From: Escherichia coli
GTDB taxonomy: Bacteria > Pseudomonadota > Gammaproteobacteria > Enterobacterales > Enterobacteriaceae
Assembly (NCBI RefSeq): GCF_030013205.1
Contig: NZ_CP122648.1
Direction: 5' to 3' (one strand)
Length of the DNA stretch: 64,000 nucleotides
The notes below the pieces were generated by a model. That model saw only the letters and a program-made list of their open reading frames with translations. It had not been told where the DNA came from and ran no database searches. Within the stretch, counting starts at the first letter, position 1, and every line of letters begins with the position of its first letter. A program made the position numbers and the translations under genes. Below, one piece after another: positions 223-58,065 of the stretch.

Positions 223-285
223 TTACCCAACAGGTAAATGCACCTCATAGGTAACTATCCTTGATTTTTGTTACCTTATGGGTGA
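223..285. promoter_or_regulatory. Three operator-like palindromes in the cI-cro spacer: TTACCCAACAGGTAA (223-237), GCACCTCATAGGTAA (240-254), TTACCTTATGGGTGA (271-285)
   Basis: Read directly; 15-bp dyads of form TTACC-N5-GGTAA between divergent repressor genes, reminiscent of a tripartite OR. Confidence 0.6.
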
Positions 286-918: not shown

Positions 919-1752
919 ATGAGCAGACATGCAACAGATTGGGCCTGGGAGACAGATCCAGGTAGCTCGTCATTAAAGCTCATACTGCTCTCGATGGCTG
1001 ACAGAGCCGATGAATATAACCTCTGCTACCCCAGCATAGAACGCCTCGTTAAAGACACTTGCCTGAATAAAAAAACCGTGCAGGCCGGGCTTATATCGCT
1101 CATGAAAATGGGGCTTATTTCAGATACCGGAGAGAGAAAGGGAGCGACGAAAAGAGTGCGGGTTTTCTCTCTTAATATAACCAAAAACGGGAACATTAAA
1201 GGCAACCGGGAAGGGGGTAATGGACCCGAAAACGGTAATGTTACCGAAAACGGTAATGTTACCGAAAACGGGAATATACCCAAAAACGGGATGTTGAATG
1301 ATCCCAAAAACGGGATGTTGAATGATCCCAAAAACGGGATCCAGAACCAGTCATATAACCAGTCATTTAACCAAGAGAGGGAGAGCAGGACAAAAAGCGG
1401 GGATTCTGTGCCTCATGACCCCGGCGCAAACAACGCCGTGATGAATAACTTTGTTCCTCCTGGTGGGCCAGGGCAATTAGGCAAATTTGTCATGCATGAA
1501 CAATGGCAGCCATCAGATGACTTTCTTCGGAAAAGCTCATTGCAGGGGATCTACCTGGACAGTCTGCCAACGGCACAGGAACTTGCAGAGTTCAGAATTT
1601 ACTGGATGGCTGAGGGTAAGGCATACCATCAGGCACAGTGGGAGCAGAAGCTGGCAAGGCGGCTGCAGATTAGCAGACAGAAGCAATCAACATTACCTGA
1701 TAACAACGTTCCGCACTGGAACAGCCCTGAAGCATGGGAGGATTTCTTGTGA
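919..1752 (+). CDS. Replication initiator, lambda O-like (N-terminal winged-helix, repeat-encoding linker, C-terminal domain)
   Basis: Position directly upstream of and overlapping a clear lambda P homolog; internal direct DNA repeats (iterons) encoding NG-rich repeats. Confidence 0.7.
   Translation: MSRHATDWAWETDPGSSSLKLILLSMADRADEYNLCYPSIERLVKDTCLNKKTVQAGLISLMKMGLISDTGERKGATKRVRVFSLNITKNGNIKGNREGGNGPENGNVTENGNVTENGNIPKNGMLNDPKNGMLNDPKNGIQNQSYNQSFNQERESRTKSGDSVPHDPGANNAVMNNFVPPGGPGQLGKFVMHEQWQPSDDFLRKSSLQGIYLDSLPTAQELAEFRIYWMAEGKAYHQAQWEQKLARRLQISRQKQSTLPDNNVPHWNSPEAWEDFL
1225..1372 (+). repeat. Iteron-like direct repeats inside the O-like gene (candidate phage replication origin)
   Basis: CCGAAAACGGTAATGTTA x2 plus a degenerate third copy, CCCAAAAACGGGATGTTGAATGAT x2 plus degenerate third, then AACCAGTCAT x2; shared core AAAACGG. 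Confidence 0.6.
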
Positions 1753-16225: not shown

Positions 16226-16240
16226 TTACCTTTAAGGTAA
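16226..16240 (-). promoter_or_regulatory. TTACCTTTAAGGTAA palindrome immediately upstream of the 69-aa/membrane-protein operon
   Basis: Read directly; same dyad family as cI-cro operators. Confidence 0.5.
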
Positions 16241-16306: not shown

Positions 16307-16999
16307 TCAGAAGAACCCTGCCTTGTCGTTGATGTACTCCGCGTGCGTCTGGATATCACGCAGGCATTTGCTCACACCGACGATGTAGCAGAACATGGTG
16401 GTCAACTCCGCCGCCGCGCCCGATACGTCGTGCCCGTCTTCCTGTAACTGGTTCAGCAGATTCATCAGCAGTGAGTTCTCCGTCAGGCCGAGAACACCAG
16501 ACGGAGAATGAATCAGGCTGCGGTAGCCGGGCTTCAGCGGGGCACTGTAGGTTTTGTTCTCTATCTTCATTGCCTGCATCACTGCTGATGCTGTGGCGTT
16601 GGCTACCTGGTCGGCAACCATCTTTATGCGTTCTTCCTGCGGGAGCGAGTTTTTAATGTAACTTCCGGTGCGGCGGATCTGAGGAAGAACCTCACCTGTA
16701 ACCCATTCAAGAAATCTGAATGCTCTCGTTCCCTCAGTCATTGCCTCTTTGCAACGCAGAATAAGGATGTAGAGACCTGATTCTGAAACGATGGATAGTT
16801 CTTGTATTCCACCAGGGGTCTGTATTGAATACAGCCCCTTTTTGTTCCAGCCTTTTTTATCAAGTTTTCTCGCTTGTGTAACATCAATATTCAAAGCATT
16901 GCACACATCTTTGGTGACAAACCAAGGTTCTCCGTCAATCATGAACATACGGATCTGGCAGGATGACTCAAAGGAAAAGATGGAAGGTTTGGTATTCAT
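16307..16999 (-). CDS. Antirepressor-like protein, N-terminal Bro-N domain plus C-terminal Ant-type domain
   Basis: MNTKPSIFSFESSCQIRMFMIDGEPWFVTKDVCNAL...SESGLYILI matches Bro-N pattern; start taken at internal ATG (track ORF begins at 17044). Confidence 0.7.
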   Translation of the reverse strand: MNTKPSIFSFESSCQIRMFMIDGEPWFVTKDVCNALNIDVTQARKLDKKGWNKKGLYSIQTPGGIQELSIVSESGLYILILRCKEAMTEGTRAFRFLEWVTGEVLPQIRRTGSYIKNSLPQEERIKMVADQVANATASAVMQAMKIENKTYSAPLKPGYRSLIHSPSGVLGLTENSLLMNLLNQLQEDGHDVSGAAAELTTMFCYIVGVSKCLRDIQTHAEYINDKAGFF

Positions 17000-17290
17000 G
17001 GCGATCACCTTTGTAGTTAGGTTAATCACCACCGCTGAGACCAATCAGATGGTGGTGAACTGTGCAGAGTTGGTCTTACCGGCTACAAAGGAACCCGGCG
17101 CACCTTTCGGTGCCCCCACACAGCCCACCATAGAATAGGTGCGCTTTACACATAAAAAAACCGCTTATGCGGCATATGTGCCTCTGTAGTAATCCGGGAG
17201 ACCAATCCCGGCACTGGATTTTGCCAGTGCCCGATTACTATGGCACAAGAGGAGTGCGATGTAAATTTACCGCAAAGGTAATGATAAACG
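17000..17290 (-). other. Long structured 5' leader of the antirepressor gene, containing an intrinsic terminator (plus coords about 17154-17172) and several hairpins
   Basis: Minus-strand reading: GCACTGG..CCAGTGC, CGGGA..CCCGG, CCGCATAAGCGG+TTTTTTT, GCACC-GAAA-GGTGC, TCACCACC..GGTGGTGA; 10-nt GATTGGTCTC repeated in two loops. Confidence 0.45.
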
Positions 17291-17374
17291 CGAAGAAATA
17301 TTAAAATCAACCGTATTTGGTTGATTGCGTTTAACGCTTGATCACCTGAAAGCAAGATATTACCTTTAAGGTAA
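17267..17374. promoter_or_regulatory. Two TTACC-N5-GGTAA palindromes (17267-17281 TTACCGCAAAGGTAA; 17360-17374 TTACCTTTAAGGTAA) in the divergent region between antirepressor leader and the 17395 gene
   Basis: Read directly. Confidence 0.5.
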
Positions 17375-17394
17375 TGTTATTGTGAGGAAAGGCA

Positions 17395-57344: not shown

Positions 57345-58065
57345 ATCCGGCCCTTTTTTTGTGCACAGAAAACCCCCAGCTAGGCTGGGGGTTCCGGAAA
57401 GCTTTCAGCTTTGAGCCAGTTATTAAAACCCCTTTTGATTTGTTAAAACACCTTGCGGTCTGGCAACTGCAAGTGTCAAACAAGAAATCAAAAGGGGGTC
57501 CCAATGGGGAACGAAAAGAGCTTAGCGCACACCCGATGGAACTGTAAATATCACATAGTTTTTGCGCCAAAATACCGAAGACAGGTGTTCTACAGAGAGA
57601 AGCGTAGAGCAATAGGCAGTATTTTGAGAAAGCTGTGTGAGTGGAAAAGCGTACGGATTCTGGAAGCTGAATGCTGTGCAGATCATATCCATATGCTTGT
57701 GGAGATCCCGCCCAAAATGAGCGTATCCGGGTTTATGGGATATCTGAAAGGGAAAAGCAGTCTGATGCTTTACGAGCAGTTTGGTGATTTGAAATTCAAA
57801 TACAGGAACAGGGAGTTCTGGTGCAGAGGGTACTACGTCGATACAGTGGGTAAGAACACGGCGAAGATACAGGATTACATAAAGCACCAGCTTGAAGAGG
57901 ATAAAATGGGAGAGCAGTTATCGATTCCCTATCCGGGCAGCCCGTTTACGGGCCGTAAGTAACGAAGTTGGATGCAAATGTCAGATCGTGTGCGCCTGTT
58001 AGGGCGCGGCTGGTAAGAGAGCCTTATAGGCGCATTTGAAAAACCTCCGGCTATGCCGGAGGATA
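57345..58065 (+). mobile_element. IS200-type insertion element (boundaries approximate) between bamC and purC
   Basis: Contains a 152-aa IS200 HUH transposase gene flanked by terminal hairpins (CCCCCAGC-TAG-GCTGGGGG near 57375; CCTCCGGC-TAT-GCCGGAGG near 58043); enlarges the intergenic region by about 0.7 kb. Confidence 0.6.
57504..57962 (+). CDS. tnpA: IS200 family HUH transposase TnpA
   Basis: MGNEKSLAHTRWNCKYHIVFAPKYRRQVFYREKRRAIGSIL...HIHMLVEIPPKMSVSGFMGYLKGKSS... with HxH motif and catalytic Tyr region. Confidence 0.85.
   Translation: MGNEKSLAHTRWNCKYHIVFAPKYRRQVFYREKRRAIGSILRKLCEWKSVRILEAECCADHIHMLVEIPPKMSVSGFMGYLKGKSSLMLYEQFGDLKFKYRNREFWCRGYYVDTVGKNTAKIQDYIKHQLEEDKMGEQLSIPYPGSPFTGRK

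What the first reader, a model, noticed from the sequence alone, without database searches (positions are those of the whole stretch)
17000..17290. Antirepressor gene is preceded by a roughly 270-nt structured leader containing an intrinsic terminator and a 10-nt motif repeated in two hairpin loops
Between the operator/promoter at about 17267-17281 and the antirepressor start at 16999 the minus-strand transcript would fold into several stable hairpins. One is a canonical terminator (CCGCATAAGCGG then T7; plus coords about 17154-17172) placed upstream of the coding sequence. GATTGGTCTC occurs in two separate loops (plus coords 17199-17208 and 17037-17046). This architecture is what is expected for attenuation or for a processed small regulatory RNA controlling antirepressor synthesis, analogous in logic to the c4 antisense RNA of P1/P7 or sar of P22. 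No sequence homology to those is claimed.
Basis: partly seen in the sequence, partly recalled or inferred. Interest (0 to 1): 0.6.

Follow-up and report, generated by a model that had tools for sequence, protein, structure and literature searches.

The report
P1-type c4 antisense RNA module

Summary

Rfam identifies the parts at gathering score: isrK (17230-17154, 74.7 bits) and C4 antisense RNA (17135-17048, 78.6 bits). P1's own c4 scores 68.8 with the same model.

The repeated motif is the a1 and a2 target site (UUGGUCU), which pairs with c4's a' segment (AGACCAA). A second pair of sites pairs with c4's b' loop (CCUUUGUAG): b1 (CUACAGAGG) and b2 (CUACAAAGG). b2 overlaps the ant ribosome-binding site.

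All 17 loci examined, including P1 and Gifsy-1, have the same element order. In the 16 tabulated for pairing, a'/b' and both target sets change together (4 a' types, 12 b' loop sequences).

The most likely mechanism is that c4, cut from the read-through transcript, blocks ant translation. The short terminated a1b1 RNA probably acts as a decoy for c4.

A TTACC-N5-GGTAA operator, also present at the cI/cro-like region, abuts the promoter.

Verdict: already known kind, low interest.

The parts
17267..17281 (.). Operator-like palindrome TTACC-N5-GGTAA, abutting the -35 of the c4/ant promoter
   Evidence: 7 perfect copies in the window (223, 2572, 2634, 16226, 17267, 17360, 18479). With one mismatch allowed there are 15 matches, against 1.2 expected. 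Two copies lie between a divergent HTH repressor-like ORF and a cro-like ORF. The palindrome is conserved in Uetakevirus-like relatives.
17237..17265 (-). Main promoter: -35 TTTACA (17265-17260), 17-nt spacer, TGn-extended -10 CATAGT (17242-17237). Inferred transcription start is near 17230.
   Evidence: The -10 aligns with the annotated -10 TATAGT of P1's P1c4 (former P51b) promoter and is conserved in all 15 aligned loci. Position 1 of the isrK model falls at 17230.
17281..17310 (-). Second, upstream promoter-like site (TTGATT-18-TATCAT). The operator begins at its last base (17281) and would cover its start site.
   Evidence: This is a consensus match only. P1 likewise has two c4 promoters, the upstream one overlapped by its C1 operator.
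17154..17230 (-). IsrK-like a1b1 element: hairpin P1 (17230-17211), hairpin P2 (17210-17195) carrying a1 in its loop, then b1, then the terminator
   Evidence: Rfam isrK 74.7 bits (gathering score 50). c4-a1b1 scores 39.9 bits at 17243-17191, below its gathering score of 46.7. The hairpins covary (helices 1-2).
   Evidence: 7-bp complement of c4 a'. a1:a' cells are 100% paired across 15 loci, and 4 of 7 pairs show changes on both sides (helix 3).
17181..17189 (-). b1 target site CUACAGAGG
   Evidence: 9-bp complement (one G-U) of the c4 b' loop. All 9 pairs show changes on both sides across loci (helix 4).
17153..17173 (-). Intrinsic terminator: GCCGC-AUAA-GCGGU followed by U7
   Evidence: It forms the 3' part of the isrK model. 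Hairpin energy is -7.5 kcal/mol. A terminator sits at this position in all loci listed.
17148..17181 (-). Clamp helix enclosing the terminator. The 5' arm GCACAUA (17181-17175) pairs with the 3' arm UAUGUGU (17154-17148). It can form only in read-through transcripts.
   Evidence: a flanking helix closes around the terminator hairpin in 14 of 15 single-sequence folds (not Tyrion), with different sequences (GCGCAU/AUGCGU, GCGACAA/UUGUCGC; P1 GCGGACA/UGUCCGU). It is not part of any Rfam model matched here.
17048..17135 (-). c4 antisense RNA. By analogy with the 77-nt P1 c4, the mature RNA is predicted to be about 17129-17051.
   Evidence: Rfam C4 78.6 bits (gathering score 45), full-length match. 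It folds into a long stem, a GAAA-capped hairpin and a second hairpin at -43.6 kcal/mol. The helices covary (helices 5-7).
17083..17091 (-). b' antisense segment CCUUUGUAG, in the loop of the second internal hairpin of c4
   Evidence: Naming follows the P1 record.
17070..17076 (-). a' antisense segment AGACCAA, in the single-stranded junction of c4
17026..17058 (-). a2 hairpin. The 3' arm of c4 (UCACCACC) pairs with GGUGGUGA and presents a2 in the loop. It cannot form together with the c4 closing stem.
   Evidence: this hairpin is predicted in 14 of 15 loci, including P1 (Hafnia yong2 folds differently). Energy here is -18 kcal/mol.
   Evidence: Pairing with a' is 95.7% across loci, and 4 of 5 pairs show changes on both sides (helix 8).
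17008..17016 (-). b2 target site CUACAAAGG, overlapping the ant Shine-Dalgarno sequence GGUGAUC (17009-17003). The ant AUG is at 16999-16997.
   Evidence: A perfect 9-bp complement of b'. In all 16 tabulated loci b' has a 6-12-bp complement lying between 16 nt upstream of, and overlapping, the downstream gene's AUG.
16307..16999 (-). ant: Bro-N-type antirepressor gene (230 aa)
   Evidence: Pfam Bro-N, E = 4e-13. PHROG 130 'anti-repressor Ant', E = 3.5e-51. RefSeq calls it a BRO-N domain-containing protein.

Best explanation
This is the secondary immunity (immI-type) control region of an epsilon15/phiV10-like E. coli prophage. It is a same-strand, co-transcribed c4 antisense-RNA module, homologous to the c4 region of P1/P7 and to the isrK locus (orf45/STnc1160, then anrP) of Gifsy-1.

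Proposed mechanism:
1. Transcription starts near 17230, from a promoter flanked by an operator of the prophage's cI/cro type.
2. The first 77 nt carry the a1 and b1 sites and end at a weak terminator. Terminated transcripts are a short IsrK-like RNA.
3. Read-through transcripts continue through c4 (17135-17048), then a2, then b2 with the ant ribosome-binding site, then ant.
4. c4 is cut out. In P1 the 5' cut is made by RNase P.
5. The a' segment (AGACCAA) and b' segment (CCUUUGUAG) of c4 pair with a2 (UUGGUCU) and b2 (CUACAAAGG). This covers the Shine-Dalgarno sequence and blocks Ant synthesis, both in cis and on incoming phages of the same specificity.
6. The upstream a1b1 copy competes for c4, either within the precursor or as the free short RNA. 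It therefore works as a decoy that can release ant.

Shown here: family membership, the anatomy, the complementarity and its covariation. Inferred from P1 and Gifsy-1 experiments: transcription, processing, translational repression and the decoy role.
For: Rfam. C4 scores 78.6 bits and isrK 74.7 bits, both full-length and above gathering score. P1's c4 scores 68.8 with the same model.

Complementarity in this locus. a' pairs with a1 and a2 over 7 bp each. b' pairs with b1 and b2 over 9 bp each, and b2 overlaps the ant ribosome-binding site.

Conservation. The order isrK-like element (below gathering score only in P1), C4, downstream gene was found in all 17 loci checked. The downstream gene is an antirepressor or Bro-N gene in most of them.

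Covariation. There are 4 a' types and 12 distinct b' loop sequences, and both target sets match in each locus.
- a1:a' is 100% paired, with 4 of 7 pairs changed on both sides. b1:b' has 9 of 9 pairs changed on both sides. 0 of 500 shuffles reach the observed covariation score. Partners slid by 1-3 columns drop from 97.7% to 34-46% paired.
- a2:a' is 95.7% paired.
- Longest b' to b2 run: cognate mean 9.0, non-cognate mean 5.4.

P1 annotation. Oc4 operator, two promoters, a1, b1, c4, a2, b2 and ant occur in the same order.

Gifsy-1. A C4 hit (69 bits) lies where the published orf45/STnc1160 is. The published compensatory mutants G28A/C162U and G31A/C159U fall exactly on a1:a' base pairs (PMC4825925). 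In the same paper, IsrK supplied in trans raises anrP translation 139-fold.

The whole-leader minimum-energy fold pairs a1b1 with a'b' in cis, like that paper's 'structure A'.

Weinberg et al. 2010 already describe the a1-in-hairpin, b1-just-3' motif and cite the competition idea.
Against: There are no expression data for this locus. Transcript ends, read-through frequency, RNase P processing and repression are all inferred.

The c4-a1b1 model itself scores 39.9 bits, below its gathering score of 46.7.

There is no icd-like ORF, which P1 needs for ant expression.

Every transcript carries a decoy, but only read-through transcripts carry c4. Net repression therefore requires c4 to outlast the other RNAs, and this is untested.

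The Gifsy-1 authors explain activation by mRNA refolding and upstream-ORF coupling rather than by c4 titration.

Whether the operator is bound by the prophage repressor is not shown.
Confidence: 0.88

Rival explanations
1. IsrK-type positive control through a small upstream ORF. The long transcript is locked in an inactive fold. The short RNA refolds it so that an ORF starting at the conserved AUG inside c4 is translated, and ribosomes then couple into ant, as proposed for orf45-anrP in Gifsy-1.
For: isrK matches at 74.7 bits. The leader's minimum-energy fold reproduces the cis a1b1:a'b' pairing of the paper's 'structure A'. The AUGG at the 5' foot of c4 is invariant and is the orf45 start codon in Gifsy-1 (PMC4825925).
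Against: The ORF from that AUG is 28 codons here and stops 45 nt before the ant AUG, so no overlap or coupling is possible. In the closest relatives with the same a'/b' pairing cores it is 15 codons and ends 83-84 nt upstream. Across loci it ranges from 8 codons to in-frame fusions, with no conserved peptide. The invariant AUGG is explained equally well by the c4 stem.
Confidence: 0.07
2. A purely cis-acting transcription attenuator. The terminator at 17173-17153 is switched on or off by alternative leader folds or by a protein or metabolite, and no trans-acting RNA is involved.
For: An intrinsic terminator lies upstream of the coding sequence. Mutually exclusive helices exist: the c4 closing stem against the a2 hairpin, and a1b1:a'b' against the modular fold.
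Against: No alternative helix competes with the terminator stem itself. The only conserved helix touching it (the clamp) uses sequence transcribed after the U-tract, so it cannot influence termination. Attenuation does not explain why two loop sequences co-vary with two sites on each side. It also does not explain the full-length C4 match.
Confidence: 0.03
3. A P22 sar-like cis-antisense RNA, transcribed from the plus strand across the ant ribosome-binding site.
For: One plus-strand promoter-like match (GTGACA-17-AATCAT, 16914-16942) inside ant points towards the leader.
Against: The match is 9 of 12 and within chance expectation for the region (3 found, against 0.9 +/- 0.8). There is no plus-strand terminator. 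No Rfam family reaches its gathering score on the plus strand there; the only plus-strand matches have E >= 0.6. All covariation supports pairings between minus-strand segments.
Confidence: 0.02

Closest known systems
c4 antisense RNA and the immI region of phages P1/P7 (Citron & Schuster 1990; Rfam RF01695; NC_005856 annotation)
   Same: The same Rfam family, with the same fold. The order on one strand is the same: operator, promoter(s), a1 in a hairpin loop, b1, terminator-like hairpin, c4, a2 directly after c4, b2 over a ribosome-binding site, then the antirepressor. a' lies in the junction and b' in the hairpin loop. Specificity is set by a few bases, which is the basis of P1/P7 heteroimmunity.
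   Different: There is no icd ORF, so b2 covers the ant ribosome-binding site directly. Ant is a 230-aa Bro-N protein, not P1 Ant1/Ant2. The terminator between b1 and c4 fits the IsrK model well (74.7 bits, against 35.1 for P1). The host phage is an epsilon15/phiV10-like integrated prophage, not a plasmid prophage. The operator is a TTACC-N5-GGTAA palindrome rather than the asymmetric C1 operator.
IsrK / orf45 (STnc1160) / anrP locus of Salmonella prophage Gifsy-1 (Hershko-Shalev et al. 2016, PMC4825925; Rfam RF01394)
   Same: The same module. In Gifsy-1, isrK (79.3 bits) is followed by a C4 hit (69 bits) and an antirepressor-like gene. It has a weak terminator that yields short and long isoforms. 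Its a1:a' pairing is shown experimentally, because the published compensatory mutants map onto those pairs. The short RNA activates translation of the downstream gene in trans.
   Different: In Gifsy-1 the ORF that starts in c4 (orf45) overlaps the anrP start and is reported to be needed for coupling. Here it stops 45 nt upstream. The specificity differs: Gifsy-1 has a' ACGCCAA. The downstream cascade through AntQ is specific to Gifsy-1.
c4-a1b1 motif (Weinberg et al. 2010, PMC2864571; Rfam RF03163)
   Same: Two covarying hairpins, with a1 in the second loop and b1 immediately 3', upstream of c4.
   Different: The score here is 39.9 bits, below the gathering score of 46.7. The motif as defined stops before b1 and the terminator, which the isrK model covers.
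c4 + isrK pair upstream of a Bro-N gene in APSE phages of Hamiltonella (Rouil et al. 2020, PMC7313666; LR794147 annotation)
   Same: The same tandem arrangement of isrK and C4, followed by a Bro-N gene, with a'/b' annotated.
   Different: The specificity differs (a' GUCUCAA, b' CCUUGUUAG). The APSE record labels a' and b' the other way round from the P1 record.
CI RNA with seqA/seqC of satellite phage P4 (from my own knowledge and the discussion in PMC4825925)
   Same: A small RNA is processed from the leader of the operon it controls, and it pairs with repeated sites upstream and downstream of itself.
   Different: P4 CI causes premature transcription termination of the replication operon rather than blocking an ant ribosome-binding site. 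No P4-type context is present here. Not tested with tools.
sar RNA of P22 immI
   Same: An RNA that limits antirepressor synthesis.
   Different: sar is transcribed from the opposite strand across the ant ribosome-binding site. No such transcription unit is supported here.

Membership tests
C4 antisense RNA (RF01695; P1/P7 c4) | Covariance-model score at or above the family's gathering score over the full model | tested here: met
   78.6 bits against a gathering score of 45, model positions 1-87 of 87, E = 1e-13. P1's c4 scores 68.8.
C4 antisense RNA (RF01695; P1/P7 c4) | Fold: a long closing stem enclosing a tetraloop-capped hairpin and a second hairpin with a large loop, followed by a single-stranded junction | tested here: met
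   The minimum-energy fold has this shape at -43.6 kcal/mol with a GAAA loop. All three helices are 96-100% paired across 15 loci and have 6, 5 and 2 pairs changed on both sides.
C4 antisense RNA (RF01695; P1/P7 c4) | Segments a' and b' complementary to sites a2 and b2 downstream on the same strand, with b2 over a ribosome-binding site | tested here: met
   a':a2 is 7 bp. b':b2 is 9 bp and overlaps the Shine-Dalgarno sequence GGUGAUC. Covariation is shown.
C4 antisense RNA (RF01695; P1/P7 c4) | A second copy of the targets (a1, b1) upstream of c4 | tested here: met
   a1 at 17205-17199 and b1 at 17189-17181. Covariation is shown.
C4 antisense RNA (RF01695; P1/P7 c4) | Lies upstream of, and on the same strand as, an antirepressor gene | tested here: met
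   Bro-N / PHROG 130 Ant gene at 16999-16307.
C4 antisense RNA (RF01695; P1/P7 c4) | Co-transcribed with its target and released by RNase P processing as an RNA of about 77 nt | not testable with these tools
   Only the sequence arrangement is visible: a single promoter upstream and a conserved ...CACCACC 3' end. No transcript data are available.
C4 antisense RNA (RF01695; P1/P7 c4) | P1-specific feature: an icd ORF between b2 and ant, translationally coupled to ant | tested here: not met
   There is no ORF between c4 and ant, and b2 lies directly at the ant ribosome-binding site. This is a feature of P1, not of the RNA family.
IsrK (RF01394; Gifsy-1) | Covariance-model score at or above the gathering score | tested here: met
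   74.7 bits against a gathering score of 50, model positions 1-77 of 77.
IsrK (RF01394; Gifsy-1) | Two 5' hairpins followed by a Rho-independent terminator that gives an RNA of about 77 nt | tested here: met
   Hairpins at 17230-17211 and 17210-17195, terminator at 17173-17153. The RNA ends themselves were not measured.
IsrK (RF01394; Gifsy-1) | Read-through mRNA carrying an orf45-like ORF that overlaps, and is coupled to, the antirepressor gene | tested here: not met
   The ORF from the conserved AUG is 28 codons and stops 45 nt before the ant AUG.
IsrK (RF01394; Gifsy-1) | Hfq binding and trans-activation of downstream translation | not testable with these tools
   This needs co-immunoprecipitation and reporter assays.
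c4-a1b1 (RF03163) | Covariance-model score at or above the gathering score | tested here: not met
   39.9 bits against a gathering score of 46.7, E = 1.4e-8, full length. The structural features are present, and the overlapping isrK model passes.
P22 sar-type cis-antisense RNA | A promoter and terminator on the opposite strand, giving an RNA that overlaps the ant ribosome-binding site | tested here: not met
   There is only one weak plus-strand promoter-like match and no plus-strand terminator.

The most novel reading that the evidence does not exclude
The module may be a three-RNA switch rather than a simple antisense lock. In this reading the terminated a1b1 RNA is a dedicated anti-antisense decoy, and its ratio to c4 is set by read-through of a deliberately weak terminator. 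The clamp helix around that terminator covaries across loci, P1 included, and belongs to no Rfam model matched here. It would be a functional element of read-through transcripts, for example a processing or stability signal that separates the decoy from c4. In epsilon15/phiV10-like prophages the whole unit would also be wired to the primary repressor through the same TTACC-N5-GGTAA operator used at the cI/cro region. It would follow that the IsrK literature and the c4 literature describe one mechanism, and that Gifsy-1 'activation by IsrK' is titration of a c4 RNA.
Probability: 0.3. Interest if true: 0.35.

Novelty: already known. Interest (0 to 1): 0.15.

Why it matters
The element sets whether an antirepressor is made, and so affects prophage induction and which superinfecting phages are tolerated. 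It is common: the 471-bp query spanning the promoter, leader and ant start (16950-17420) matches 481 of 5,426 complete E. coli genomes. Related modules occur in Stx-converting phages.

Three practical points follow:
- RefSeq annotates no RNA at this position.
- In some phage records the RNA region lies inside an annotated protein-coding gene. Examples are SfV orf37, the Hafnia yong2 'Ash family protein' and VT2-Sakai orf34.
- IsrK and c4-a1b1 are two database names for overlapping parts of one element.

The a'/b' types listed here predict immunity-specificity groups that can be tested. None of this is new biology, because the mechanism has been known since 1990.

Tried and rejected
- RNAcofold of predicted mature c4 with the target or with the short a1b1 RNA gave no intermolecular pairing. 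The method cannot model loop-loop contacts, so the result is uninformative. I used RNAduplex and register-free complement searches instead.
- The MAFFT alignment A1 misaligns the variable b2 region in distant loci, so b2:b' scores only 67-80% paired. The register-free table shows a cognate complement in all 16 loci.
- My first operator pattern used N6 spacing and missed the sites. N5 is correct.
- I searched the window for further paired a and b sites as possible trans targets. Only isolated single sites turned up, so there is no second target.
- The ORF embedded in c4 was rejected as a conserved coding feature.
- The plus-strand promoter-like site at 16914-16942 was rejected as a sar-like unit.
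- Weak Rfam hits in the region (FtrA, lysM-TM7, CRISPR-DR57 and others, E of 0.6 or higher) were judged to be chance.
- A literature search for a published link between c4 and IsrK found only the APSE genome paper and one unrelated paper. A 2025 review treats the two RNAs separately.

Full report
**Observation.**
- It is the longest direct repeat in the region. A repeat of that length arose in 50 of 2000 dinucleotide shuffles.
- The terminator is real: GCCGC-AUAA-GCGGU followed by U7, at 17173-17153. Its hairpin is only -7.5 kcal/mol.
- The leader is far more structured than shuffled controls (-100.5 against -75.4 +/- 5.1 kcal/mol, z = -4.97).

**Identity.** An Rfam scan of the whole window gives two adjacent full-length minus-strand matches above gathering score.
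- isrK at 17230-17154 scores 74.7 bits (gathering score 50).
- C4 antisense RNA at 17135-17048 scores 78.6 bits (gathering score 45).
- A permissive scan adds c4-a1b1 at 17243-17191 with 39.9 bits, below its gathering score of 46.7.
- P1's own c4 scores 68.8 bits with the same C4 model.

**Anatomy.** I use the names given in the P1 record.
- c4 folds into a long stem, a GAAA-capped hairpin, a second hairpin and a single-stranded junction.
- The loop of the second hairpin carries b' (CCUUUGUAG, 17091-17083). The junction carries a' (AGACCAA, 17076-17070).
- a' is complementary over 7 bp to UUGGUCU at 17205-17199 (a1) and at 17044-17038 (a2).
- a1 sits in the loop of the second hairpin of the isrK-like element. 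a2 sits in the loop of a hairpin made from the 3' arm of c4 and GGUGGUGA (17058-17026).
- b' is complementary over 9 bp to CUACAGAGG (b1, 17189-17181) and to CUACAAAGG (b2, 17016-17008).
- b2 overlaps the ant Shine-Dalgarno sequence GGUGAUC (17009-17003).
- No other paired a and b sites exist in the window.
- The downstream gene is a Bro-N protein that matches PHROG 'anti-repressor Ant' families.

**Comparative evidence.** The 471-bp query spanning the promoter, leader and ant start (16950-17420) matches 481 of 5,426 complete E. coli genomes. It is 100% identical in at least ten chromosomes, and RefSeq annotates no RNA there. Related sequences occur in 225-237 phage records.

I fetched 14 diverse phage loci: phiV10, TL-2011b, Tyrion, three Klebsiella phages, Hafnia yong2, Moraxella Mcat4, Yersinia YpM_41, VT2-Sakai, SfV, Salmonella sal3, APSE-7 and Phi05_2388B.
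- All 14 have isrK and C4 in tandem, 18-25 nt apart.
- With the window and P1 added, 16 loci carry four a' types and twelve distinct b' loop sequences. In every locus the upstream and downstream targets match their own c4, with one imperfect a2 in SfV.
- On a 15-sequence alignment a1:a' is 100% paired, with 4 of 7 pairs changed on both sides.
- On the same alignment b1:b' has all 9 pairs changed on both sides.
- 0 of 500 shuffles reach the observed scores. Sliding the partners by 1-3 columns drops pairing from 97.7% to 34-46%.
- a2:a' is 95.7% paired. b2:b' looks weaker there only because MAFFT misaligns that variable stretch.
- The longest cognate b' to b2 run averages 9.0, against 5.4 for non-cognate pairs.

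**Mapping to characterised systems.**
- P1. The record annotates, in order: C1 operator Oc4, promoters P2c4 and P1c4, a1, b1, c4, a2, b2, icd and ant. The window matches this element for element, except that icd is missing and b2 sits on the ant ribosome-binding site itself.
- Gifsy-1, position. isrK (79.3 bits) is followed by a C4 hit (69 bits) exactly where the published orf45/STnc1160 lies, and then by anrP.
- Gifsy-1, mutants. The published compensatory mutants G28A/C162U and G31A/C159U fall on a1:a' base pairs, and the orf45 start codon A107 is the conserved AUGG at the foot of c4 (PMC4825925).
- Gifsy-1, activity. The same paper reports that IsrK supplied in trans raises anrP translation 139-fold.
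- Weinberg et al. 2010 already describe the a1b1 motif. They cite the original proposal that a1/b1 compete with a2/b2 for c4.
- The APSE genome paper notes c4 plus isrK upstream of a Bro-N gene.

**Promoter and operator.**
- The best promoter match is TTTACA-17-CATAGT with an upstream TG (17265-17237).
- Its -10 aligns with the annotated -10 of P1's P1c4 and is conserved in all aligned loci. This places the start near 17230, which is position 1 of the isrK model.
- A second promoter-like site lies at 17310-17281.
- The palindrome at 17267-17281 is one of seven perfect TTACC-N5-GGTAA sites in the window. With one mismatch allowed there are 15 matches, against 1.2 expected.
- A perfect site (223) and a one-mismatch site (271) lie between a divergent HTH repressor-like ORF that runs off the left end of the window and a cro-like ORF.
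- It is therefore probably the prophage's own operator, which parallels C1 control of the P1 c4 promoter. Binding has not been shown.

**Mechanism.** Shown here: family membership, the fold, the position of the parts, the complementarity and its covariation. Inferred from P1 and Gifsy-1:
1. Most transcripts stop at the weak terminator and give an a1b1 RNA of about 77 nt.
2. Read-through transcripts carry c4, a2, b2 and ant.
3. c4 is excised and pairs with a2 and b2, which occludes the ribosome-binding site. It acts in cis and on incoming phages of the same specificity.
4. The a1b1 copy competes for c4, either within the precursor or as the free short RNA.

The minimum-energy fold of the whole leader pairs a1b1 with a'b' in cis. 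It is about 10 kcal/mol more stable than my estimate for the modular fold (-72.8 kcal/mol evaluated without the a2 hairpin, plus about -18 for that hairpin).

**Rival explanations.**
- Upstream-ORF coupling as in Gifsy-1 is unlikely here. The ORF from the conserved AUG is 28 codons and stops 45 nt before ant. It is 15 codons in the closest relatives and is not conserved as a peptide.
- A pure attenuator does not explain the three-way covariation. No helix competes with the terminator stem.
- A sar-like opposite-strand RNA has no support.

**Extra feature.** In 14 of 15 single-sequence folds (not Tyrion), a helix forms from the sequence just 5' of the terminator hairpin and the sequence just after the U-tract. 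Here it pairs 17181-17175 with 17154-17148. The pairs covary. It can form only in read-through RNA and is not part of the Rfam models matched here. Its role is unknown.

**Verdict.** The element is a routine member of a family described in 1990 and catalogued in Rfam, so novelty is 'already known' and interest is low.

Noticed in passing
window 223-237, 2572-2586, 2634-2648, 16226-16240, 17267-17281, 17360-17374, 18479-18493 (perfect); 271-285, 608-622 and others (one mismatch): A dispersed set of TTACC-N5-GGTAA palindromes: 15 matches with one mismatch allowed, against 1.2 expected. They sit in front of several transcription units. These include the cI-like/cro-like divergent region at the left end of the window, the c4-ant promoter and its neighbours. 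The pattern looks like a P1-style multi-operator regulon of the prophage repressor. In phiV10 the homologous site is the centre of a 37-bp perfect palindrome.
   Followed up: partly
window 18145-18402 (-): An 85-aa ORF matches the same PHROG family (phrog_450, E = 1e-47) as the C-terminal third of Ant (residues 147-228). It is a free-standing copy of the Ant C-terminal domain, with its own TTACC-N5-GGTAA site at 18479-18493. It corresponds to epsilon15p19/PhiV10p24, annotated as 'hypothetical protein'.
   Followed up: partly
window 17148-17181 (-); same position in L002-L016: A covarying helix clamps the terminator hairpin. It uses sequence transcribed after the U-tract, so it exists only in read-through RNA. 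A flanking helix appears in 14 of the 15 loci folded, including P1 (not Tyrion), and is not part of the isrK, c4-a1b1 or C4 models.
   Followed up: partly
L017 (Gifsy-1) 34131-34316 (-): The published 'orf45/STnc1160' region of Gifsy-1 is a full-length Rfam C4 match (69 bits). The published compensatory mutants G28A/C162U and G31A/C159U lie on a1:a' pairs. In the cmscan output here isrK carries no clan, whereas C4 and c4-a1b1 are in CL00128, although isrK overlaps c4-a1b1. A 2025 review treats IsrK and c4 as unrelated RNAs.
   Followed up: yes
L014 325-1161 (SfV orf37), L010 488-1171 (Hafnia yong2 'Ash family protein'), L013 763-936 (VT2-Sakai orf34), L011 720-845 (Mcat4): Annotated protein-coding genes run across the isrK/C4 RNA region in several phage records. 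They are probably over-extended or spurious CDS calls.
   Followed up: no
window 57371-57494 (+): A full-length match to Rfam STnc490 Hfq-binding RNA (146.4 bits, gathering score 56), far from the finding.
   Followed up: no
window 1241-1274 (+), inside ORF 919-1752: Tandem TTACCGAAAACGGTAA / TTACCGAAAACGGGAA repeats lie inside a replication-protein-like ORF whose product has repeated NGNVTE/PKNGMLND peptides. They look like origin iterons embedded in the gene.
   Followed up: no
window 17395-18123 (+): A 242-aa ORF is transcribed divergently from the c4-ant promoter region. It matches phrog_6762 over its full length, and its C-terminal part weakly matches endonuclease VII and Lar-like families. 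It has its own operator copy at 17360-17374.
   Followed up: no
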